Below, one piece after another: positions 1-46,770 of a DNA stretch of 64,000 bases. Every line of letters starts with the position of its first letter. The first letter of the stretch is position 1. The notes below the pieces were generated by a model. That model searched no databases and was not told the DNA's origin. It saw nothing but the letters and a program-made list of their open reading frames with translations. Source of the stretch: a candidate division TM6 bacterium GW2011_GWF2_28_16 (lineage in GTDB: Bacteria; Patescibacteriota; Microgenomatia; UBA1400; PJMF01); assembly GCA_001029715.1 (NCBI GenBank), contig CP011212.1:398936-462935 (forward strand), given 5' to 3'. The translations under genes were made by a program, and so were the position numbers.

Positions 1-381
1 TTTAACCTTGTATTTAGCCTTATAAATATCATCATTTTTTTGACAAATACGCCAAAATTCCTGAGCCGCTACAATATGTTTTTGATCAGTGGTACGGATA
101 AAGTGGCTAAAAGACAGGTTGAGTAACTTTTCAAGATCTGTAAATTTACTAGCCCACTGATCACAATATTCTTGCACATCCATTTTTTGTTCCAAAGCTT
201 TTTGCCAGATCTTTTGACCATGTTCATCGGTACCAGTATTAAAAACTACCTCGTTGCCAAGAATTTCTTTTTGATAGCGAGCGATGACATCAGCCTCAAT
301 AATTTCCAAAGCAAAGCCAATGTGAGGCGCAGCGTTAACGTAAGGTAAAGTGGTAGTAATATAGAATTTCTTGTATTGCAT
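1..381 (-). CDS. metG: Methionyl-tRNA synthetase, N-terminal part (partial; C-terminal part lies beyond the window start)
   Basis: Minus-strand translation from ATG at 381: MQYKKFYITTTLPYVNAAPHIGFALE...FNTGTDEHGQKI. It carries the class I HIGH-type motif and the MetRS-typical TGTDEHGQKI block. The ORF is open to position 1. Confidence 0.8.
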   Translation of the reverse strand, partial: MQYKKFYITTTLPYVNAAPHIGFALEIIEADVIARYQKEILGNEVVFNTGTDEHGQKIWQKALEQKMDVQEYCDQWASKFTDLEKLLNLSFSHFIRTTDQKHIVAAQEFWRICQKNDDIYKAKYKVK

Positions 382-422
382 CGGGTCTATTATAGAAAAG
401 TCGAGGCAGAAAAGCCAGAGTT

Positions 423-852: not shown

Positions 853-1992
853 ATGAGTAACACTACCCTTCTAATATTATGTTTGTTTTTGATTTCAATT
901 TTAGCGACTTTTTATTTTTTGCTAAAAAAACTTTTGTCAGAAAAAAATTCAGAGCAATCTAGTGAACAACTGGAAGATATGGTTCACAAAGTTTTTGGCA
1001 TGGCTTCTAATGAAATTGCTATTCAAAGTAAAGGTATCCTGCAAGGTGAGAAAGATTTAATCAAGAATGATCTCTCTAATAAACAAGCTGCGATTGAAAA
1101 GATGATAAAAGATTTACGTCAAGAAATGGGTGACCAACAAAGAGAAATTCGTGCTATTGAAAAAGATCAGATTGATAAAATTAGTGGAGTTAAAACAGCT
1201 GTTGAAGAGCATCGCCAATTAACCAAGGAACTAAAAATTTCTACAGAGCAACTGGCCAAAGTTTTATCCAATAATCAGACTCGTGGAGCCTGGGGTGAAC
1301 GCATTATTGAAGATTTGTTGCAGGCCAATGGCTTGCAAGAAGGCATTCATTATCTACGTCAAGCTAAATTGGGCGCTTCAGAAATGAAGCCAGATATTAC
1401 CCTGCTTTTACCAGACCATCGCAACGTGGCAGTTGACGTTAAATTCCCGTATCAAGAAGTTCAAAAGATGTCGATGACTGAGGATCAGAGTGAAAAACAA
1501 AGTCATGTTTTGCAATTTAAAAGAGATCTTAAAATTAAAGTAGACAAAGTAGCTACCTATATTTCTCCAGAAAACGATACTTTAGATTACGCAATTATGT
1601 TTGTGCCAAATGAAGCTCTGTTTTCCTTTATCAATCAAAAGTTCCCAGACGTTATTGATGAGGCTTTAGCTAAAAAAGTAATTATTTGTTCGCCTTTTAG
1701 TTTCTTAATTGTGGCTCGCACAGTGATGGAAAGTTATCGTAACTTTATGGTGGGTAAAAAAATCAAACAAGTTATCAAACACATTGATGCTTTTGCAGGA
1801 GAATGGTTAAAATTTGACGATGAATTTTCTAAGTTTGGACGTAGTATCGAAACTTTGCAAAAAAACTACGAAACTCTTTCAACCACGAGGAAAAGACAGA
1901 TGGAAAAGAAGATTCAAAAGATTGAACAGTATCGCGGTAGTTCAGTAGAATTATTGGAAGATGGTGAAAAAGTTAAACTTCTAGAAGATTAA
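853..1992 (+). CDS. rmuC: DNA recombination protein RmuC family
   Basis: N-terminal TM plus long coiled-coil region. GAWGERIIEDLL (GxWGE motif) and PDITLLLPDHRNVAVDVKFP block typical of the RmuC nuclease-like domain. Confidence 0.7.
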   Translation: MSNTTLLILCLFLISILATFYFLLKKLLSEKNSEQSSEQLEDMVHKVFGMASNEIAIQSKGILQGEKDLIKNDLSNKQAAIEKMIKDLRQEMGDQQREIRAIEKDQIDKISGVKTAVEEHRQLTKELKISTEQLAKVLSNNQTRGAWGERIIEDLLQANGLQEGIHYLRQAKLGASEMKPDITLLLPDHRNVAVDVKFPYQEVQKMSMTEDQSEKQSHVLQFKRDLKIKVDKVATYISPENDTLDYAIMFVPNEALFSFINQKFPDVIDEALAKKVIICSPFSFLIVARTVMESYRNFMVGKKIKQVIKHIDAFAGEWLKFDDEFSKFGRSIETLQKNYETLSTTRKRQMEKKIQKIEQYRGSSVELLEDGEKVKLLED

Positions 1993-3128
1993 TCGTTTAA
2001 ATATTTTTCAAAAAAGCTAAGATCTTTTTGGACAGCTTGATTCCAATTGGGTTGTAAATTGTGATTAGCGCCTGGATATTTGTAGAAGTCAATATTTATT
2101 ACTTCCTTTTTTACTTCTTCCGCACTTTGACTGGCATCTGCGTTTTGAGCGCTAGTTGTAGCTCTCAATTCATTTTCTAAATCTACTTTAGCCAAAAATT
2201 CTTCTGTCCAAGAAATTAAGGCTGAGTCATCAGCAGTGCCATGTTGGATTTGAATCGGTCCATTTAATTTGTCTAAATGTTTGGTCAGCGAAAAATCAAA
2301 AACATCGTAATCATCCTCAAAAAGTGAAACATATTTACGAGTCTCTTTACCCTCATCTCCATATTCGTCACTGAAATAAAGAATTGAATATGGGAAAGGC
2401 ACCAGAACTGGTGCCCAAAGAGTAGTAGGCAGATTGCTACCAAGAACTTCTAGAGTAGAGATTGCAATTTGTCCACCATTACTATGTCCCCAAATGCCGA
2501 TTTGACTTGTATCAACGCTAACTTTTTTAATTGTTAGTTCAGTAATTTGACTAAGATCTATTTCTGGAAATGTTTGAATTGTTTTAATGAGATCAACTGC
2601 ATTGACGACTTTAATAAATCTAGCTTCCCAAGTATCAGTTGGCTCGGGATCACTTTCACCAAAGCCAAGAAAATCTGGAGCTAAAGTGAGGTAGTCGTTT
2701 TCTGCAAAGACAGCAGCAACATTTTTAGTACCTTCTCCAGAGTAATATGTTTCTAGAGGAACATAACCTCTAATCATTATTATGGTTGGTTTTTTTGTGT
2801 TCTCATTATCTATTTTCAAATTAAGTGCACCGGAAATTTTTTTACCCTGACTTTGATAAGTAAAAAGTAGGGCATATGTTTGCGTGTCCAAATCTTTAGA
2901 GATAATTTTTTCAATTCTGATTGGTGATGATACTTTAAATTCTTGTTTGCTTAAATTTTCAAAAGAATATTTAAGCAGTGGCAATGGTTTTTCTGTTTTT
3001 ATTTGTTTAACAATACTTTTTGCCAGAGGAGTTGATTCATTTTTTAAATAAAAATAAGCGATTAAAAAAGAAAGACAGCTACTTATTATCAATAGTAAAC
3101 ATATGAAGATTATTTTTTTTGTTTTCAC
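1989..3128 (-). CDS. Secreted/membrane-anchored alpha/beta-hydrolase (esterase/peptidase S9-like)
   Basis: N-terminal signal/TM. GHSNGG nucleophile elbow (GxSxG), downstream Asp/His candidates. 379 aa. Confidence 0.7.
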   Translation of the reverse strand: MKTKKIIFICLLLIISSCLSFLIAYFYLKNESTPLAKSIVKQIKTEKPLPLLKYSFENLSKQEFKVSSPIRIEKIISKDLDTQTYALLFTYQSQGKKISGALNLKIDNENTKKPTIIMIRGYVPLETYYSGEGTKNVAAVFAENDYLTLAPDFLGFGESDPEPTDTWEARFIKVVNAVDLIKTIQTFPEIDLSQITELTIKKVSVDTSQIGIWGHSNGGQIAISTLEVLGSNLPTTLWAPVLVPFPYSILYFSDEYGDEGKETRKYVSLFEDDYDVFDFSLTKHLDKLNGPIQIQHGTADDSALISWTEEFLAKVDLENELRATTSAQNADASQSAEEVKKEVINIDFYKYPGANHNLQPNWNQAVQKDLSFFEKYLND

Positions 3129-3174
3129 TCAGCAAATTATAGCAGTCTTGCTAACTTTTCTTCAAAATTGATGC

Positions 3175-3203
3175 TTGCTAAAATACCAGATCATATTTAA
3201 AAT
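3175..3203 (+). promoter_or_regulatory. Candidate sigma70-type promoter (TTGCTA-N17-TAAAAT) driving a short transcript
   Basis: TTGCTA at 3175-3180 and TAAAAT at 3198-3203, with a 17-nt spacer, in otherwise non-coding DNA. Confidence 0.35.
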
Positions 3204-3314
3204 CTTTCAACATGTCGTTAATTACAAATTACTCCCATTTTTTCTTGGTCATTTTGCGCAAGAACGTTGCGGGGTAATCTTGTTGCATTAAAACAGATAA
3301 AAAACAAGAACAAG

Positions 3315-3340
3315 CCCCGCCTTAAGAAGCGGGTTTTTTT
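3315..3340 (+). terminator. Rho-independent terminator (CCCCGC-loop-GCGGG followed by T7)
   Basis: GC stem 3315-3320/3329-3333, 8-nt loop, TTTTTTT 3334-3340. Together with the upstream promoter it delimits a ~130-nt transcript. Confidence 0.55.
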
Positions 3341-3476
3341 GTATTTTTGATCTTTAACATTAACTAAGGGCTACTTTAGTCTTCAATTATTTGAAAGTTA
3401 AGGTAACCCTTTGTGGCTAGAGCAAATCAGCGCTCTAGTTTCGAAGGGAAAATTTTTCATGGTGGAGGAGAAAACA

Positions 3477-3590
3477 ATGGCAATAGGCAAGGGTAAGCAA
3501 AAAAAGTCTTCCGAACATTTGCCGAGATGCCCCCTTTGTGGGGGAAAACACAGGGCAAAATATTGTCCAAGAAAGCAAAAACCCTCTTAA
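3477..3590 (+). CDS. Tiny basic zinc-knuckle-like protein (37 aa), hypothetical
   Basis: ATG preceded by GGAGGAG 8 nt upstream. MAIGKGKQKKSSEHLPRCPLCGGKHRAKYCPRKQKPS with C-x2-C-x3-H-x4-C. Followed 6 nt later by a perfect 11-bp hairpin. Confidence 0.35.
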   Translation: MAIGKGKQKKSSEHLPRCPLCGGKHRAKYCPRKQKPS

Positions 3591-3596
3591 CCAAAG

Positions 3597-3622
3597 CCTC
3601 CGGTCCAGTAATGGACCGGAGG
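3597..3622 (+). other. Perfect 11-bp GC-rich hairpin (CCTCCGGTCCA-GTAAT-TGGACCGGAGG)
   Basis: Read directly from sequence. Lies immediately after the 37-aa ORF; the following 16 nt are AT-rich with TTTATTTT. Confidence 0.55.
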
Positions 3623-3754
3623 CAACAACATTTATTTTGACCAGGATCCTTAATTTTTAAATATTTGAAATTTAAGAATCCTCGTTTTTTTTCTAGAGCT
3701 AGCGCAAAGCGCGCCAATCTTTGGAAAGAGGAAATCTTTTTGGGAGGGTCGTCG

Positions 3755-3811
3755 ATGAAGAAAGATAAGAAGAAGAAAAAAGGACATCGTAATAAAAAAG
3801 GCAACAAGTAG
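3755..3811 (+). CDS. Tiny poly-lysine peptide ORF (18 aa), hypothetical leader or micro-protein
   Basis: ATG preceded by GGGAGGG 7 nt upstream. MKKDKKKKKGHRNKKGNK encoded by an AAG/AAA run. Followed by a perfect 9-bp hairpin. Confidence 0.3.
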   Translation: MKKDKKKKKGHRNKKGNK

Positions 3812-3840
3812 TCGCCTTTAGGTGTCCAACCCTCAATCTT

Positions 3841-3866
3841 TGGTGGCGCCATTTATTTGGCGCCAC
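3841..3866 (+). other. Perfect 9-bp GC hairpin (GGTGGCGCC-ATTTATTT-GGCGCCACC)
   Basis: Read directly from sequence. Lies 30 nt downstream of the 18-aa ORF and ~70 nt upstream of the aspS start. Confidence 0.55.
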
Positions 3867-3934
3867 CAAAATCTTTCCCTTCCTATATTATCTAAAACCT
3901 CTTTTTCAAATTTCGGTTATAATAACTCTTACCT

Positions 3935-5356
3935 ATGCAAAGAACTCTCGTTATTGATTCCTTAGAAAAAGTTGGTCAAACTGTTCGCCTCTGTGGTTGG
4001 GTGGATAGCAAGCGTGATCACGGTAAAGTTACTTTCATTGATTTAAGAGATCGTACTGGCAAGATCCAGGCCGTTGGTATTGGTGGCAAATTGAGTGAGT
4101 TAAGCAATGAGTCAGTTGTTGAAATCACTGGACCAATCAATACTCGTGGCGAAAAAATGGTCAACCCAAATTTGCCAACTGGCTCCATAGAGATTTTTGT
4201 TGAAGATTATAAGGTTCTCAATAAGGCAGCTGAGCTACCAATTCTTGTGGAAGGTGATGGTCGTGATGTTAATGAAGAGATGCGTCTTAAGTATCGCTAT
4301 TTAGATTTGCGTCGTGAGAGAATGCAAAAAATTGTGCGCTTGCGCTCTAAATTTTATCAAGCTCTTCGTGAGCAATTAGAGAAAAAAGATTTTACCGAAG
4401 TTGAAACTCCAATGTTGACCAAATCAACTAAGGAAGGAGCTCGTGATTTCATCGTGCCTTCTCGTTTTAATCCTGGTAAATTTTATGCTCTTCCGCAAAG
4501 TCCTCAACAATATAAACAATTATTGATGACGGCTGGTGTTGAGAATTATTATCAATTTGCTCGTTGTATTCGCGATGAAGATTTACGTGCTGATCGCGGT
4601 TTTGAATTTACTCAGCTTGATCTCGAAATGAGTTTTGTGACTCAACAAGAAGTAATGGATAATGTCGAAGAAATTGTCAAAAATGCTGTCAAAAAAGTTG
4701 GCGCCAAACTCAAAGATGAAGTTTTTCCAGTTATTCCTTACAAAGAAGCAATTGAAAAATATGGTGCCGATAAATTTGATTTGCGCAGTGAGGAAGAAAA
4801 AAAAGAAAATGTTTTAGCTTTTGCTTGGGTGGTTAGTTTCCCATTCTTTAAAAAAGTTGATAAAAAAGACATTGCTGAAGTGCGCGATGGTAAGAGTGGT
4901 TGGACTTTCACTCATAATCCTTTTTCGAGTCCAATTCCAGAATCTATGGAAGATCATAAGAATGCTGAAAATATCGAAAATATTATTACCGCTCAGTATG
5001 ACTTGGTCTGTAATGGTTACGAAGCAGGTGGCGGCAGTATTAGAGCTCATGATCCAGAAGTTCTTAAAAAGACCTTTGAAATCATGGGTTATAGTGATCA
5101 GGAGATTGAAGCCAGTGTGGGCCATATGTTGGAAGCTTTTAAATTGGGCACTCCTCCCCATGGTGGAATTGCTTTAGGACTAGATCGCTTAGTAATGCTT
5201 TTGGCAGGAGAGAATTCACTCAAAGAAACCATTGCTTTCCCAATGAGTTCTTCTGGCAAGACCTCTATCATGGACGCACCAAGCGAAGTTTCTGATGAAC
5301 AACTCAAAGAGTTAGGTATTCTAATCGCTCCTAATTTAGCTACAATGAAAAAGTGA
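3935..5356 (+). CDS. aspS: Aspartyl-tRNA synthetase, bacterial-type core but lacking the GAD insertion domain (473 aa)
   Basis: QSPQQYKQLLM block, CIRDEDLRADRGFEFTQLDLEM (motif 2 region) and GLDRLVMLL (motif 3). A TATAAT box sits 12 nt upstream of the ATG, suggesting a leaderless or near-leaderless mRNA. Confidence 0.8.
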   Translation: MQRTLVIDSLEKVGQTVRLCGWVDSKRDHGKVTFIDLRDRTGKIQAVGIGGKLSELSNESVVEITGPINTRGEKMVNPNLPTGSIEIFVEDYKVLNKAAELPILVEGDGRDVNEEMRLKYRYLDLRRERMQKIVRLRSKFYQALREQLEKKDFTEVETPMLTKSTKEGARDFIVPSRFNPGKFYALPQSPQQYKQLLMTAGVENYYQFARCIRDEDLRADRGFEFTQLDLEMSFVTQQEVMDNVEEIVKNAVKKVGAKLKDEVFPVIPYKEAIEKYGADKFDLRSEEEKKENVLAFAWVVSFPFFKKVDKKDIAEVRDGKSGWTFTHNPFSSPIPESMEDHKNAENIENIITAQYDLVCNGYEAGGGSIRAHDPEVLKKTFEIMGYSDQEIEASVGHMLEAFKLGTPPHGGIALGLDRLVMLLAGENSLKETIAFPMSSSGKTSIMDAPSEVSDEQLKELGILIAPNLATMKK

Positions 5357-6252
5357 GAAAATCATCTCTGCTTTTATTGCTACTATTTTTTCTTTCTTTG
5401 CTTAGCTTAGTCTATTTTTATTTTTTTTATCCACAAAAAATAGTTAAAAAAGTTGAATTAGAACTTTTTAGTTTAGAAAATGTACCAGTACTTAGAAATA
5501 AAAGTTTTTTTAATGACGATCTTAATCTAAGTGCTATTTCCGCTTATGCACTAGATTTATCGTCAATGACAGTACTTTATGAAAAAAATAGCCAACAAGT
5601 TCTTTATCCAGCCTCAACGAGTAAAATGATGACCGCTTTGGTTGCTTTAGACACTTTTAATTTAGAAGATGAATTAATGGTTGCTAAAGAGGCCACTGTA
5701 TCTGGCAATAAATTAAGTCTTAAAGAAGGCCAGCTAATTAGGGTTAAAGATTTATTGGCAGCAATGTTGATTTTTTCTGCTAATGATAGCGCTTATGTTT
5801 TAGCGGATAGAGATCCTGAAGGTTTTAGTGGCTTTATAGCTAAAATGAACCAAAAAGCCTCTAGCTTGGGTTTATCAGAAACTCACTTTGTTAATCCAGC
5901 TGGACTTGATGAAGCAGGACAGGATGCTACGGCCAGGGATTTAACAGTCATTGCTCAAGAATTACTCAAAAACAAGCAGCTTAAAGAGCTGGTTGCGATG
6001 CCTTACAAAAAAATAGAAGGAGAAGGTTGGTCTTATGATTTGTATAATAGCAACCAGCTGCTTGGTCAAATTCAAGGCATTTTAGGAGTTAAAACTGGTA
6101 CGACTGAGCTAGCGGGTGAAGTTTTAGTAACGTTAATAGAGAGAGATGGTCATCAAATCTTGATTACTTTAATGAATAGTCAGGATCGTTATCAAGATAC
6201 AAGTAGGTTAATAGCGTGGATACTTAATAATTACGAGTGGAAAAAACTCTAA
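5353..6252 (+). CDS. dacA: D-alanyl-D-alanine carboxypeptidase (peptidase S11, PBP5/6-like)
   Basis: N-terminal TM. SxxK (ASTSKMMT), SxN (FSANDSA) and KTG (KTGTT) motifs in the right order. Confidence 0.8.
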   Translation: MRKSSLLLLLLFFLSLLSLVYFYFFYPQKIVKKVELELFSLENVPVLRNKSFFNDDLNLSAISAYALDLSSMTVLYEKNSQQVLYPASTSKMMTALVALDTFNLEDELMVAKEATVSGNKLSLKEGQLIRVKDLLAAMLIFSANDSAYVLADRDPEGFSGFIAKMNQKASSLGLSETHFVNPAGLDEAGQDATARDLTVIAQELLKNKQLKELVAMPYKKIEGEGWSYDLYNSNQLLGQIQGILGVKTGTTELAGEVLVTLIERDGHQILITLMNSQDRYQDTSRLIAWILNNYEWKKL

Positions 6253-42335: not shown

Positions 42336-42368
42336 GCTAAAGCCATCTGGTGTTATAATATTCTTTAA

Positions 42369-43499
42369 ATGAAATCAGCTATTTATGCTTTTTCTGGCGA
42401 TCCAATTACCTTCGGTCATCTTGATGTTATTCAGCGTGCAGCAGCAGTTTTTGATCGCTTGGTGGTAGCGATTGGTCTTAATCCTGCTAAAAAATATCTT
42501 TTTTCTCAAGAAAAACGCACTGAAATGGCGCGTAGATCCCTTTTGACTCTTAAAAATGTAGAAGTGAAATCTTTTCAAGGAATGTTGGTGGATTTTGCTT
42601 ATGAAAATAATATTGATGTGATTGTCAAAGGAGTTAGAAGTGCTCAGGATTTTGAGTATGAGCAAAGCTTACACAGCTTAGGTGAAAGCCAGAAACTTGG
42701 AATAGATACTTTTATTCTTTTTGCTAAACCGTCATTGGCACATATTAGTTCAAGCGCGGTCAAAGAAATTCAGCAAGAACAAGGCTTAATTCAAGATTAT
42801 GTGCCAAGCTATGTTAAACAATGCGTCGAAGCCAAGTTGAGTGAGCAATTCATTGTTGGTCTAACTGGTGAGATTGGAGTTGGGAAATCTTATCTTGGGC
42901 AAAAAATGGTAGCTTTGGCTCAAAAAATGGGTTTAGAAGCACATAACATTGAGTTAGATCATTTGTCTTGGCAAATTCAGTCAGATCTTAAAGAAGAAAA
43001 ATATGAAGTAGTCAGAAAAAAAATTATTGATACTTTTGGTGCAGAAATTGCCAATAATGATGGCAGTATTAACCGTAAGATTTTGGGTGAAATTGTTTTT
43101 GCCAATCAAAAAAAATTAGATAAACTCAATGAAATTATGGAGACTCCAATTTTAGTGCGTTTACGTAGAGAGCTAAAAAATAAGAAAGGTTTAATTTTTC
43201 TTAACGCAGCTTTACTAGTTGAGGCACAAATGAGCCAGCTTTCTAATTACAACACGATTTTGCTCGGTGTGGATGAAAAAACTCAGCAAGAGCGACTTCT
43301 AGAAAGAGGATTAAACAAAGAGCAAATTAAAAGAAGATTAAAAAGTCAGTATGATTTTGCTAATAAGAAAAAGAATTTGCAAAAAGAAATTGAGATGAGC
43401 AAGCAAGGTAAACTTTGGACTTTGAATAAGAAAAATGTTACTGGTGAAGAAATGAAAAAACTATTAAATGAGCTTTTGCTTTATTTTGGCATCAATTAG
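42369..43499 (+). CDS. coaDE: Bifunctional phosphopantetheine adenylyltransferase / dephospho-CoA kinase (CoaD-CoaE fusion)
   Basis: N-terminus aligns to PPAT (FSGDPITFGHLD, DFEYE, ISSSAVKE). C-terminus has the DPCK P-loop IVGLTGEIGVGKSY. Confidence 0.8.
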   Translation: MKSAIYAFSGDPITFGHLDVIQRAAAVFDRLVVAIGLNPAKKYLFSQEKRTEMARRSLLTLKNVEVKSFQGMLVDFAYENNIDVIVKGVRSAQDFEYEQSLHSLGESQKLGIDTFILFAKPSLAHISSSAVKEIQQEQGLIQDYVPSYVKQCVEAKLSEQFIVGLTGEIGVGKSYLGQKMVALAQKMGLEAHNIELDHLSWQIQSDLKEEKYEVVRKKIIDTFGAEIANNDGSINRKILGEIVFANQKKLDKLNEIMETPILVRLRRELKNKKGLIFLNAALLVEAQMSQLSNYNTILLGVDEKTQQERLLERGLNKEQIKRRLKSQYDFANKKKNLQKEIEMSKQGKLWTLNKKNVTGEEMKKLLNELLLYFGIN

Positions 43500-44849: not shown

Positions 44850-44885
44850 AATATCGAAATTATAGCGTATATTTGAGCCTGTGTT

Positions 44886-46560: not shown

Positions 46561-46770
46561 AATATTTTTATAAAATTACCGCTTGCGCTGATTCTCAATT
46601 CTTGCTACTTTAATTATTGCTGTGGAACATAGTGAAAATCTATGACTGTGCCGCAACGGTAATTCCTTTTTAAGGATTAGTCCGATCTTCAGCAAAAGAG
46701 AAATCTTGACGAGCATCGAGGCTGTATATTTTACTGTCGATGCTCCCTAAAGGGGAGCTTTTTTGTTCAA
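46561..46770 (+). promoter_or_regulatory. Structured leader with alternative hairpins ending in an intrinsic terminator (attenuator/riboswitch-like)
   Basis: Hairpin A is GAGCATCGA (46711-46719) / TCGATGCTC (46736-46744). Its 3' arm overlaps the 5' arm of the terminator GCTCCC(46742-46747)-TAAA-GGGAGC + T6. A further long-range stem lies upstream. Confidence 0.4.

What the first reader, a model, noticed from the sequence alone, without database searches (positions are those of the whole stretch)
3175..3340. Candidate ~130-nt small RNA with its own promoter and terminator in the 800-bp gap upstream of aspS
A near-consensus promoter (TTGCTA-N17-TAAAAT, 3175-3203) is followed ~110 nt later by a clean intrinsic terminator (3315-3340). 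The only ORF inside is 22 codons with no SD. In a genome where most junctions are under 40 bp or overlapping, an 800-bp non-coding gap with a self-contained transcription unit stands out. I could not match it to tmRNA, RNase P RNA, SRP RNA or 6S by eye.
Basis: seen in the sequence. Interest (0 to 1): 0.55.

Follow-up and report, generated by a model that had tools for sequence, protein, structure and literature searches.

The report
Leaderless leader-peptide transcription attenuator, Patescibacteria
The "small RNA" is real as a roughly 130-nt transcription unit, but it is best read as a ribosome-sensing on/off switch: a tiny reading frame at the very 5' end, then a terminator with a competing antiterminator. 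It belongs to a previously undescribed family found next to aspS in many candidate-phyla-radiation bacteria.

Summary
They are conserved in about 35 Patescibacteria loci. Rfam has no family for the element.

- Its ATG lies 6-12 nt after the -10 box in nearly all members, which suggests a leaderless mRNA.
- The frame stays open up to a G-rich "region 2" in 26 of 27 non-redundant members. The other two frames stay open in 9 and 6.
- The stop codon falls within or just after region 2.

Region 2 can pair with a G-free region 1 inside the ORF, or with the 5' arm of the terminator. Both pairings co-vary between members (0 of 20,000 permutations did as well). The antiterminator duplex is much stronger than at 81 control terminators (-16.6 vs -9.2 kcal/mol, p = 1e-12).

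In many relatives the downstream gene starts directly after the U-tract, so the element acts in cis. This is a trp/erm-type ribosome-mediated attenuator. In the window it most likely gates a structured leader and a 37-aa zinc-knuckle mini-protein.

The signal it senses is unknown, because no codon run is present. Transcription and read-through are inferred, not shown.

The parts
3136..3165 (-). Back-to-back divergent promoter of the S9-peptidase/hydrolase gene: TTGAAG, 18 nt, TG-TATAAT. GTG 3128 lies 7 nt after the -10 box, so this gene also looks leaderless.
   Evidence: Promoter scan, 10/12 match with an extended -10; sequence; Pfam of the gene.
3175..3203 (+). Promoter of the element: -35 TTGCTA (3175-3180), 17-nt spacer, -10 TAAAAT (3198-3203).
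   Evidence: The hexamers are conserved in 12 homologs while the spacer diverges. TTGACA/TAnnnT-type boxes are present in the distant members.
3212..3277 (+). Leaderless (0-3 nt 5' UTR, inferred) leader ORF MSLITNYSHFFLVILRKNVAG, with stop TAA at 3275-3277.
   Evidence: The ATG lies 8 nt after the -10 box, with no SD. Homologous ORFs of 20-33 codons occur in all members. Frame-specific absence of stop codons.
3228..3237 (+). Region 1 (AUUACUCCCA, codons 6-9), the 5' strand of helix P1, which acts as the anti-antiterminator.
   Evidence: MFE fold. RNAalifold covariation, UA7/CG4 and CG5/UG4/UA3. Swap test for the 1:2 pairing.
3242..3264 (+). Inner hairpin P1b (UUCUUGGU ... GC.CAAGAA). It encodes the F-L-V-I-L-R-K core of the peptide.
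   Evidence: Folds. Arms differ between members by eye: UCCUU/AAGGA, UUCUU/AAGAA, CCAC/GUGG, CCUC/GAGG (sequences).
3268..3284 (+). Region 2 (G-rich: GCGGGGU at 3269-3275 plus UCUUGUU at 3278-3284). It pairs with either region 1 or region 3, and it contains the stop codon.
3303..3320 (+). Region 3 (AACAAGA at 3303-3309 plus GCCCCGC at 3314-3320), the 3' strand of the antiterminator. It overlaps the 5' arm of the terminator.
   Evidence: Constrained folds in all 12 close homologs. The helix is 90% paired, against 44-56% when slid. -18.6 kcal/mol.
3316..3340 (+). Intrinsic terminator: CCCGC (3316-3320), 8-nt loop, GCGGG (3329-3333), U7 (3334-3340).
   Evidence: Terminator scan; hairpin -7.9 kcal/mol; invariant in homologs.
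3368..3448 (+). Module B, a conserved structured leader between the attenuator and the mini-protein ORF. GGGCUAC (3368-3374)/GUAACCC (3403-3409) competes with CCCUUUG (3407-3413)/CGAAGGG (3442-3448). The latter encloses the co-varying hairpin CUAGAGC (3417-3423)/GCUCUAG (3432-3438).
   Evidence: Alignment A4; also conserved in L021, L006, L008 and L010; no Rfam hit.
3464..3590 (+). Putative regulated gene: SD GGAGGAG (3464-3470) and a 37-aa basic zinc-knuckle-like mini-protein (ATG 3477; CPLCGGKHRAKYCP).
   Evidence: Homologous C-x2-C-G-x2-H-x4-C-P ORFs lie downstream of the element in L001, L004, L084, L021, L008, L007 and L006. Only sub-threshold Pfam hits.
3596..3623 (+). 12-bp G+C-rich hairpin (GCCTCCGGTCCA ... 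TGGACCGGAGGC) that closes the mini-protein unit.
   Evidence: Sequence. The terminator scan calls this site on the minus strand only; the palindromic stem is read here as ending the plus-strand unit.

Best explanation
The element is a ribosome-mediated (leader-peptide) transcription attenuator whose leader ORF is translated from a leaderless or near-leaderless mRNA.

Proposed sequence of events (inferred):
1. RNA polymerase starts about 7 nt after TAAAAT, so the transcript begins at or 1-3 nt before AUG 3212. A 70S ribosome loads on the 5'-terminal AUG.
2. If the leader is not translated, region 1 (3228-3237) pairs with region 2 (3268-3278). The terminator (3316-3333 plus U7) then forms and transcription stops at about 3340, releasing an RNA of about 130 nt.
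3. If the ribosome runs to the stop codon at 3275-3277, it sits on region 2. The terminator forms again.
4. Only a ribosome held up within roughly codons 5-14 keeps region 1 occupied while leaving region 2 free. Region 2 then pairs with region 3 (3303-3320, -18.6 kcal/mol) and sequesters the terminator's 5' arm. Polymerase reads through into module B and the 37-aa zinc-knuckle gene.

In many distant members the terminator's G-rich 3' arm (GGAGG or GGCGGG) lies 6-8 nt before the next gene's AUG. The same switch would then also unmask that gene's Shine-Dalgarno sequence.

Shown here: the sequence anatomy, its conservation, frame preservation, co-variation of both alternative helices, and the geometry of the stop codon. 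Inferred: the transcription start, translation of the ORF, read-through and the stall logic. The inducing signal is unknown. There is no run of codons for one amino acid, so I favour a general sensor of elongation slowdown on the leader (aminoacyl-tRNA supply, or a drug- or peptide-dependent arrest).
For: Conservation as a unit:
- 12 close homologs at 76-87% identity.
- 4 of these came from an independent metagenome pattern scan.
- About 25 distant members were found with covariance model R1, nearly all within 400 nt of aspS.

Leader ORF:
- The ATG lies 6-12 nt after the -10 box in nearly all members, with no SD.
- Stop codons between the ATG and region 2 number 1, 42 and 42 in frames 0, +1 and +2 across 34 members.
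- The frame is open in 26/27 non-redundant members, against 9 and 6 in the other frames. The expectation from shuffled composition is 0.30.
- The stop codon lies 3-34 nt after the start of region 2 in all but one member, and 23-60 nt before the terminator stem.

P1 (region 1 with region 2):
- RNAalifold and pair counts show two pairs changed on both sides: UA7/CG4 and CG5/UG4/UA3.
- Swap test: cognate -14.05 vs non-cognate -11.86 kcal/mol, matched by 0 of 20,000 permutations.

Antiterminator (region 2 with region 3):
- It forms in all 12 close homologs when the terminator's 3' arm is absent and the first 42 nt are masked.
- The helix is 90% paired, against 44-56% when slid.
- Duplex energy is -16.6 kcal/mol, against -9.2 for 81 other terminators in the same DNA. 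Mann-Whitney p = 1.2e-12. The AdoCbl riboswitch terminator ranks among the top controls, which serves as a positive control.
- Swap test: -17.3 vs -12.2 kcal/mol, matched by 0 of 20,000 permutations.

Cis action:
- In L061 (two copies), L044, L052, L055, L074, L075, L047 and L026 the downstream ATG or GTG follows the U-tract within 0-12 nt. In several others the next ORF starts within about 35 nt.
- No promoter-like site was called on the + strand between 3340 and 3477.

Plausibility in this lineage:
- Only 8 of 54 crude gene calls in the window have an SD. 25 of 54 have a -10 box 5-12 nt before the ATG, including aspS and the hydrolase gene.
- L042 carries the same design with five consecutive Asn codons, 13 nt upstream of tRNA-Asn.

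Other:
- The best, sub-threshold, Rfam matches are the Phe and Trp leaders.
- Leaderless sORF attenuators are an established mechanism in mycobacteria (bioRxiv 10.1101/834739).
Against: - No transcript, start-site, ribosome or read-through data exist for any member.
- There is no run of regulatory codons and no single enriched amino acid in the stall window, so the signal is undefined.
- Much of the peptide "conservation" can be explained by RNA constraints: a G-free region 1, the pyrimidine-rich and purine-rich arms of P1b, and a G-rich region 2.
- In the window the next ORF is 137 nt away, has its own SD and its own conserved structured leader. A weak -10-like TAACAT (3356-3361) just before module B cannot be excluded as an independent promoter (sequence).
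- The element is inverted relative to its flanks in L003 and in most distant members, so it behaves as a movable unit. The genes downstream are heterogeneous, with no Pfam or PADLOC hits.
- The ATGs of about 11 distant members were chosen by requiring an ORF of at least 15 codons, which adds some selection bias.
- Covariation in the close clade rests on two or three lineages.
Confidence: 0.7

Rival explanations
1. It is a stand-alone trans-acting small RNA, or a dual-function sRNA. The ~130-nt terminated transcript is the functional product and base-pairs with targets elsewhere. The ORF and the alternative pairings are secondary.
For: - It has its own conserved promoter and a strong terminator.
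- It moves or inverts as a unit between the same flanking genes.
- Termination is the predicted default state.
- Attenuator-derived RNAs can act in trans, for example rnTrpL of Sinorhizobium (PMC6614838, listed).
- In the window the downstream gene is 137 nt away and has its own SD.
Against: - A pure sRNA does not explain the frame-specific lack of stop codons, the fixed spacing between the -10 box and the ATG, or the stop codon locked to region 2.
- It does not explain why the segment that complements the terminator's 5' arm co-varies with it.
- In many members the next gene starts directly after the U-tract, so read-through is needed to express it.
- No conserved single-stranded seed is evident across the family.
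Confidence: 0.12
2. It is an ordinary small-protein gene. A leaderless mRNA encodes a functional 21-26 aa peptide (core motif hydrophobic-hydrophobic-I/L-K/R-K/R) and has its own terminator, like the neighbouring mini-protein genes.
For: - The ORF is preserved in all members.
- Synonymous third-position changes occur within the close clade: TAC/TAT, CAT/CAC, TTT/TTC, CGC/CGT, AAG/AAA and TAA/TAG.
- The gap holds other mini-protein genes, each with its own hairpin.
Against: - The peptide sequence is poorly conserved across the family.
- Its length varies, and a 1-nt indel shifts the C-terminal frame between sub-clades while the nucleotides stay conserved.
- Residue composition follows the RNA arms.
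- Protein function does not explain the co-varying 2:3 pairing with the terminator arm.
- The hydrophobic stretch is too short for a membrane helix.
Confidence: 0.1
3. It is a ligand- or protein-controlled terminator/antiterminator switch (riboswitch-like or RNA-binding-protein attenuator) in which the ORF plays no role.
For: - Alternative terminator and antiterminator structures are present.
- The 12-mer AUUUUGCGCAAG, which contains the palindrome UUGCGCAA, is nearly invariant in the close clade.
Against: - No conserved aptamer-like core is shared across the family. Only helices and a short hairpin are kept.
- The invariant 12-mer is clade-specific.
- ORF preservation and stop-codon placement are left unexplained.
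- There is no Rfam riboswitch hit.
Confidence: 0.05

Closest known systems
Classical ribosome-mediated attenuators of amino-acid operons (trpL, pheL, hisL, thrL, leuL; Rfam RF00513, RF01859 and others)
   Same: - A promoter-proximal ORF of about 14-30 codons.
- Four segments forming 1:2, 2:3 (antiterminator) and 3:4 (intrinsic terminator).
- A stop codon placed so that a terminating ribosome masks segment 2.
- A terminated leader RNA as the default product.
- The best, sub-threshold, Rfam hits are Phe_leader and Trp_leader.
   Different: - No Shine-Dalgarno sequence: the AUG sits at the 5' end and is inferred to be leaderless.
- No run of codons for one amino acid.
- The downstream genes are not biosynthetic; they are heterogeneous genes of unknown function.
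- Scores are far below the Rfam gathering thresholds (24.3 vs 55; 20.8 vs 41).
- The host is Patescibacteria.
Mycobacterial polycysteine leaderless short-ORF attenuators (the "Cys ribulon"; Canestrari et al., bioRxiv 10.1101/834739)
   Same: - A leaderless short ORF is the first cistron.
- Ribosome pausing on it remodels an mRNA structure that otherwise blocks expression of the downstream gene.
- There are multiple copies per genome, forming a ribosome-directed regulon.
- In distant members of the present family the blocking hairpin also covers the SD of the next gene.
   Different: - The mycobacterial elements sense Cys through poly-Cys tracts. According to the abstract, they act by sequestering the ribosome-binding site.
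- The element here has an intrinsic terminator with a U-tract and no codon tract.
- There is no sequence relationship.
Drug-inducible leader-peptide attenuators (ermC/ermK, cat, mef/mel-msr(D), and the vmlR/bmrCD type)
   Same: - A short leader ORF with no amino-acid codon run.
- Induction by ribosome stalling within the leader.
- Control is either translational (SD unmasking, ermC-type) or transcriptional (terminator/antiterminator, as for mef/mel; PMC4335068 listed).
- The leader peptides are rich in hydrophobic residues followed by basic ones.
   Different: - The downstream genes are not recognisable resistance determinants (no Pfam hits).
- No known arrest motif was tested.
- Translation starts leaderless.
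- The element has a conserved chromosomal position next to aspS rather than sitting on a mobile resistance element.

Membership tests
Ribosome-mediated (leader-peptide) transcription attenuator | A short ORF starting close to the transcription start and lying upstream of the regulated gene | tested here: met
   21-codon ORF at 3212-3277. ORFs of 20-33 codons occur at the same place in about 35 members. The frame is open in 26/27 non-redundant members, against 9 and 6 in the other frames.
Ribosome-mediated (leader-peptide) transcription attenuator | An intrinsic terminator (G+C hairpin plus U-tract) between the leader ORF and the downstream gene | tested here: met
   3316-3340, -7.9 kcal/mol plus U7. 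Present in 34 of 35 members under my hairpin criteria.
Ribosome-mediated (leader-peptide) transcription attenuator | An antiterminator (2:3) that is mutually exclusive with the terminator and supported by covariation | tested here: met
   3269-3284 pairs with 3303-3320, -18.6 kcal/mol. Stronger than 81 control terminators, p = 1e-12. Cognate beats non-cognate, matched by 0 of 20,000 permutations. 90% paired, against about 50% when slid.
Ribosome-mediated (leader-peptide) transcription attenuator | An anti-antiterminator (1:2) whose 5' strand lies inside the ORF | tested here: met
   3228-3237 pairs with 3268-3278. Two pairs changed on both sides. Swap test matched by 0 of 20,000 permutations.
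Ribosome-mediated (leader-peptide) transcription attenuator | A stop codon positioned so that a terminating ribosome covers segment 2 | tested here: met
   The stop lies 3-34 nt after the start of region 2 in 26/27 representatives.
Ribosome-mediated (leader-peptide) transcription attenuator | A tandem run of regulatory codons for a cognate amino acid in segment 1 | tested here: not met
   No run and no dominant residue in the stall window. This defines the amino-acid subclass, not the mechanism. The unrelated L042 element does have five Asn codons.
Ribosome-mediated (leader-peptide) transcription attenuator | The downstream gene depends on read-through (same transcription unit) | tested here: inconclusive
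   Met by geometry in L061, L044, L052, L055, L074, L075, L047 and L026, where the start codon lies 0-12 nt after the U-tract. In the window the next ORF is 137 nt away. No promoter was called in between, but one cannot be excluded.
Ribosome-mediated (leader-peptide) transcription attenuator | Translation of the leader and stall-dependent read-through demonstrated | not testable with these tools
   This needs 5'/3'-end mapping, ribosome profiling or coupled in vitro assays.
Rfam Phe_leader (RF01859) / Trp_leader (RF00513) | Covariance-model score at or above the gathering threshold | tested here: not met
   24.3 bits against 55, and 20.8 bits against 41. The alignments are carried mainly by the terminator.
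Leaderless short-ORF attenuators (mycobacterial Cys ribulon type) | The transcript starts at the initiation codon of the sORF | tested here: inconclusive
   The spacing from the -10 box to the ATG, 6-12 nt (mostly 7-9), and the lack of an SD are consistent with this. No start-site data exist.
Leaderless short-ORF attenuators (mycobacterial Cys ribulon type) | A polycysteine tract as the sensor | tested here: not met
   Cys is present in the stall window of only 2 of 26 leaders.
Stand-alone trans-acting sRNA gene | Own promoter and terminator, no selected reading frame, and function independent of the gene downstream | tested here: not met
   The promoter and terminator are present. However, the reading frame is under selection, and in many members the next gene abuts the terminator.
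Type I toxin (small hydrophobic peptide with an antisense RNA) | A membrane-spanning hydrophobic peptide and an overlapping antisense RNA gene | tested here: not met
   The hydrophobic run is about 7 residues long (FFLVIL). Only a weak 9/12 promoter-like site lies on the opposite strand (3218-3190), and it has no conserved partner.

The most novel reading that the evidence does not exclude
These elements may form a Patescibacteria-wide "ribulon": many leaderless leader-ORF attenuators, often several per genome. Under this reading they respond to a common translational cue, such as host-derived translation inhibitors, tRNA-charging status, or a nascent-peptide arrest through the recurrent hydrophobic-I/L-K/R-K/R core. 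They would switch on lineage-specific genes of unknown function (zinc-knuckle mini-proteins, the MSPAQ proteins, unknowns of 135-750 aa) held in a variable slot next to aspS. This would be the first gene-regulatory circuit defined for this enormous, mostly uncultured radiation. It would also give a handle on its "dark" genes.
Probability: 0.2. Interest if true: 0.75.

Novelty: new variant of a known kind. Interest (0 to 1): 0.58.

Why it matters
Patescibacteria (CPR) have tiny genomes, few recognisable regulators and almost no experimentally defined regulation.

- A conserved, computable cis-regulatory family would be an entry point for metatranscriptomics, Term-seq or cell-free assays. It has a leaderless leader ORF and a terminator/antiterminator switch, with clear mutational predictions.
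- It suggests that leaderless initiation is a major mode in at least this lineage.
- It flags a set of co-regulated genes of unknown function, including tiny zinc-knuckle proteins that gene callers miss.
- For annotation, it shows that "orphan sRNA" units in long CPR intergenic gaps can be attenuators with an unannotated micro-ORF.
- Rfam currently has no model for this element.

Tried and rejected
- **Rfam.** Gathering thresholds over the whole window gave only two tRNAs and an AdoCbl riboswitch. The permissive search gave only sub-threshold leader-like and chance hits.
- **Single-sequence fold significance.** It is weak on both strands, z = -1.45 and -1.63, so structure could not be argued from the window alone.
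- **Metagenome pattern scan.** 9 of the 13 hits were chance terminators.
- **L018 and L006 in the first alignment.** Both looked unrelated there. L006 stayed unconvincing. L018 was later recovered by the covariance model and kept as a member.
- **Column-wise covariation on distant members.** The model-based alignment (A5) is out of register. I replaced it with per-sequence duplex energies, control terminators and swap/permutation tests.
- **Amino-acid-specific sensing (Asn, Asp, His, Tyr, or queuosine-dependent codons).** Rejected. The N/Y/H/Q richness follows from region 1 being G-free, and no residue dominates. The rare codons simply track G+C in the paired segments.
- **Regulation of aspS itself.** Unlikely. 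Each mini-gene in the gap ends in its own hairpin, aspS has its own -10 box (3918-3923), and the element is divergent from aspS in most relatives.
- **Downstream genes as known defence or resistance genes.** No Pfam or PADLOC hits.
- **T-box, 6S, SRP, tmRNA.** No support.
- **Further copies in the window.** None. The only other terminator with a strong upstream complement is the AdoCbl riboswitch.
Full report
**Observation.** The window comes from a low-G+C (about 34%) Patescibacteria/CPR genome of the Microgenomates/Pacebacteria type. Its AspRS is 84-90% identical to those of such MAGs. The 806-nt gap at 3129-3934 lies between a divergently transcribed S9-peptidase/alpha-beta-hydrolase gene (1989-3128, minus strand) and aspS (3935-5356). 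The gene before the hydrolase is RmuC, not metG.
- TTGCTA (3175-3180), 17 nt, TAAAAT (3198-3203).
- A 21-codon ORF, ATG 3212 to TAA 3275-3277, with no SD.
- CCCGC-N8-GCGGG (3316-3333) followed by U7 (3334-3340).

A 9/12 promoter match is not significant by itself: 6 sites were found against 2.8 +/- 2.0 in shuffles. Neither is the single-sequence fold, with z = -1.45. Rfam has no family for the element. The best sub-threshold matches are Phe_leader (24.3 bits, threshold 55) and Trp_leader (20.8, threshold 41).

**Conservation.**
- I fetched 80 aspS loci from GTDB genomes. The first ~330 nt of the gap are conserved at 76-87% identity in L004, L011, L002 and L001. The core at 3240-3357 is also kept in L010, L008 and L007, and in inverted orientation in L003.
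- A metagenome pattern scan added L083, L084, L086 and L090.
- In all 12 distinct sequences the -35 and -10 hexamers are kept while the spacer diverges. An ATG follows the -10 box by 7-9 nt, an ORF of 21-26 codons follows, and the terminator is nearly invariant.
- A covariance model built on these (R1) found about 25 further members in more distant Patescibacteria. Nearly all lie within 400 nt upstream of aspS but on the opposite strand. L061 has two tandem copies.
- Several "control" terminators turned out to be further members at other places: L024, L077, L079 and a second copy in L022.
- The window has only one copy.

**The ORF is selected.**
- Every member has a TTGACA/TAnnnT-like promoter with an ATG 6-12 nt after the -10 box and no SD.
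- Between the ATG and region 2 there is 1 stop codon in frame 0, against 42 and 42 in the other two frames, across 34 members.
- Among 27 non-redundant members the frame is open in 26, against 9 and 6 in the other frames. Shuffled composition predicts 0.30.
- The stop codon lies 3-34 nt after the start of region 2 in 26 of 27, and 23-60 nt (median about 30) before the terminator stem.
- Caveat: for about 11 distant members the ATG was chosen by requiring an ORF of at least 15 codons. In the other 16 the ATG is the one aligned by the model.
- Leaderless initiation is plausible in this genome. Only 8 of 54 crude gene calls in the window have a GGAG-type SD. In 25 of 54 a -10 box ends 5-12 nt before the ATG, including aspS (TATAAT 3918-3923) and the hydrolase gene (TATAAT 3141-3136, GTG 3128).

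**The RNA has three competing helices.** The window coordinates are:

| Helix | Strands | Energy |
|---|---|---|
| P1 (1:2) | 3228-3237 with 3268-3278, enclosing hairpin P1b 3242-3249/3256-3264 | -15.0 kcal/mol (domain) |
| Antiterminator (2:3) | 3269-3275 with 3314-3320, plus 3278-3284 with 3303-3309 | -18.6 kcal/mol |
| Terminator (3:4) | 3316-3320 with 3329-3333 | -7.9 kcal/mol |

- P1 shows pairs changed on both sides, UA7/CG4 and CG5/UG4/UA3.
- With the terminator's 3' arm removed and the first 42 nt masked, all 12 close homologs fold into the extended 2:3 helix. Its lower stem is 90% paired, against 44-56% for slid registers.
- Across the family region 2 differs in sequence but always complements the 4-8 nt before the terminator plus its 5' arm. 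Examples: GGGGUGGUU/AACCACCCC, GGGGUAGUAA/UUACUACCCC, GGGGUUGUG/CACAACCCC, GCGAGGUA/UACCUCGC, AAGGAGGU/ACCUCCUU.
- Against controls, the best duplex between that segment and the upstream 80 nt averages -16.6 kcal/mol. For 81 other terminators in the same DNA it averages -9.2 (Mann-Whitney p = 1.2e-12). The AdoCbl riboswitch terminator appears among the strongest controls, as expected for a true expression platform.
- Swapping partners between 27 non-redundant members weakens 2:3 from -17.3 to -12.2 kcal/mol and 1:2 from -14.05 to -11.86. No permutation out of 20,000 reached the observed values.

**Cis or trans.**
- In L061 (both copies), L044, L052, L055, L074, L075, L047 and L026 the next gene's start codon follows the U-tract within 0-12 nt. 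In several other members the next ORF starts within about 35 nt. The terminator's G-rich 3' arm (GGAGG or GGCGGG) then sits at Shine-Dalgarno distance.
- Those genes can only be expressed by read-through, and the hairpin would also hide their ribosome-binding site. This argues that the family is cis-regulatory.
- In the window clade the element is followed by a conserved, co-varying structured segment (module B, 3368-3448). Then comes a 37-aa basic zinc-knuckle-like ORF with a strong SD (3464-3590) and a 12-bp hairpin (3596-3623).
- No promoter-like site was called between 3340 and 3477, although a weak -10-like TAACAT (3356-3361) cannot be excluded.
- The downstream genes across the family are heterogeneous and have no Pfam or PADLOC matches.
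- In L003, L018, L025, L034 and L038 the element precedes a small ORF and the hydrolase homolog. The window clade therefore appears to carry a local inversion of the whole unit.

**Mechanism (inferred).** The geometry is that of trp/erm-type ribosome-mediated attenuation.
- An untranslated leader folds 1:2 and then 3:4, which terminates transcription.
- A ribosome that reaches the stop codon masks region 2, which also terminates.
- A ribosome delayed over region 1 frees region 2 to pair with region 3, which allows read-through.

The signal is unknown. There is no codon run and no dominant residue in the stall window. Most of the peptide's apparent conservation follows from RNA constraints: a G-free region 1, the pyrimidine and purine arms of P1b giving hydrophobic-then-K/R residues, and a G-rich region 2 giving G/V.

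An independent example shows that the design is in use in this phylum. In L042 a leaderless ORF, MKVQLNNNNNLLR, with the same 1:2/2:3/3:4 layout and terminator, lies 13 nt upstream of tRNA-Asn(GTT).

**Comparison with known systems.** The closest are:
- The classical amino-acid leaders. The architecture is the same, but those have an SD, a codon run and biosynthetic cargo, and the Rfam thresholds are not met here.
- The mycobacterial leaderless poly-Cys sORF attenuators (bioRxiv 10.1101/834739).
- The drug-inducible erm/mef-type leaders.

Full-text searches found nothing on attenuators, leader peptides or leaderless translation in CPR/Patescibacteria.

**Verdict.** The better-supported reading is a new family of leaderless leader-ORF transcription attenuators. 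I put confidence at about 0.7. The rivals are a trans-acting or dual-function sRNA (0.12), a plain micro-protein gene (0.10) and a ribosome-independent switch (0.05). All expression-level steps remain untested.

Noticed in passing
L042:10110-10306 (+): A leaderless-looking ORF, MKVQLNNNNNLLR, with five consecutive Asn codons. The -10 box TAAAAT lies 7 nt before its ATG. It has the same 1:2/2:3/3:4 layout and the terminator CTCCC-AAAA-GGGAG-T7, 13 nt upstream of a tRNA-Asn(GTT) gene. This looks like an Asn-sensing leader-peptide attenuator controlling a tRNA gene. It was the only such case among the loci held.
   Followed up: partly
window 3368-3448 (+): Module B, a conserved structured RNA between the attenuator and the mini-protein ORF. 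The hairpin CUAGAGC/GCUCUAG co-varies (CUGGGGC/GCCUCAG, CUAAAGC/GCUUUAG, CUGGGGU/ACCUCAG). It is enclosed by the invariant pair CCCUUUG/CGAAGGG, and an upstream GGGCUAC/GUAACCC stem competes for the same CCC. There is no Rfam hit. It is also present in L021, L006, L008 and L010 upstream of zinc-knuckle ORFs. It may be a second regulatory element or a protein-binding site.
   Followed up: partly
window 3477-3590 (+), SD 3464-3470: An unannotated 37-aa, very basic mini-protein, MAIGKGKQKKSSEHLPRCPLCGGKHRAKYCPRKQKPS, with the motif C-x2-C-G-x2-H-x4-C-P. Homologs sit at the same place in L001, L004, L084, L021, L008, L007 and L006. Only sub-threshold Pfam hits were found, recurrently to the eIF3g zinc-knuckle region. 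It is followed by a 12-bp hairpin at 3596-3623.
   Followed up: partly
window 3637-3869 (+): A third mini-unit: a promoter-like site TTGACC-17-AATATT (3637-3665), SD GGGAGGG, an 18-aa Lys-rich ORF MKKDKKKKKGHRNKKGNK (3755-3811) and the hairpin TTGGTGGCGCC...GGCGCCACCAA (3840-3869). This stretch is partly conserved in L011 and L002.
   Followed up: no
whole window (e.g. 3918-3937, 3128-3141, 42340-42371, 44850-44870): Leaderless initiation seems common. Only 8 of 54 crude gene calls have a GGAG/GAGG/AGGA SD. In 25 of 54 a TAnnnT box, often near-consensus TATAAT with TG, ends 5-12 nt before the ATG. These include aspS and the hydrolase gene (GTG start). Some other genes use an AGAAAGG-type site.
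   Followed up: partly
L061:5210-5356 and 5779-5914 (-); L022:685-818 and 303-421 (-); L077 ~9903 (-); L079 ~9838 (-); L024 ~5730 (-): There are tandem and additional copies of the same attenuator design, each in front of a different hypothetical gene. Some are not next to aspS. The downstream genes include a recurrent "MSPAQ..." family of 55-67 aa (L025, L034, L036, L022) and proteins of about 172 aa with a DGHxR motif (L017, L061).
   Followed up: partly
L003:4773-4910 (-) compared with window 3175-3340 (+): The whole promoter-ORF-terminator unit is inverted between the same flanking genes. In L003 it points towards a 58-aa acidic ORF and the hydrolase gene, and a methyltransferase-like gene is inserted before aspS. 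This suggests a local inversion in the window clade.
   Followed up: partly
window 46597-46756 (+): An AdoCbl riboswitch (Rfam RF01482, 55.6 bits). Its terminator at about 46742 also has a strong upstream complement, and it served as a positive control for the antiterminator test.
   Followed up: no
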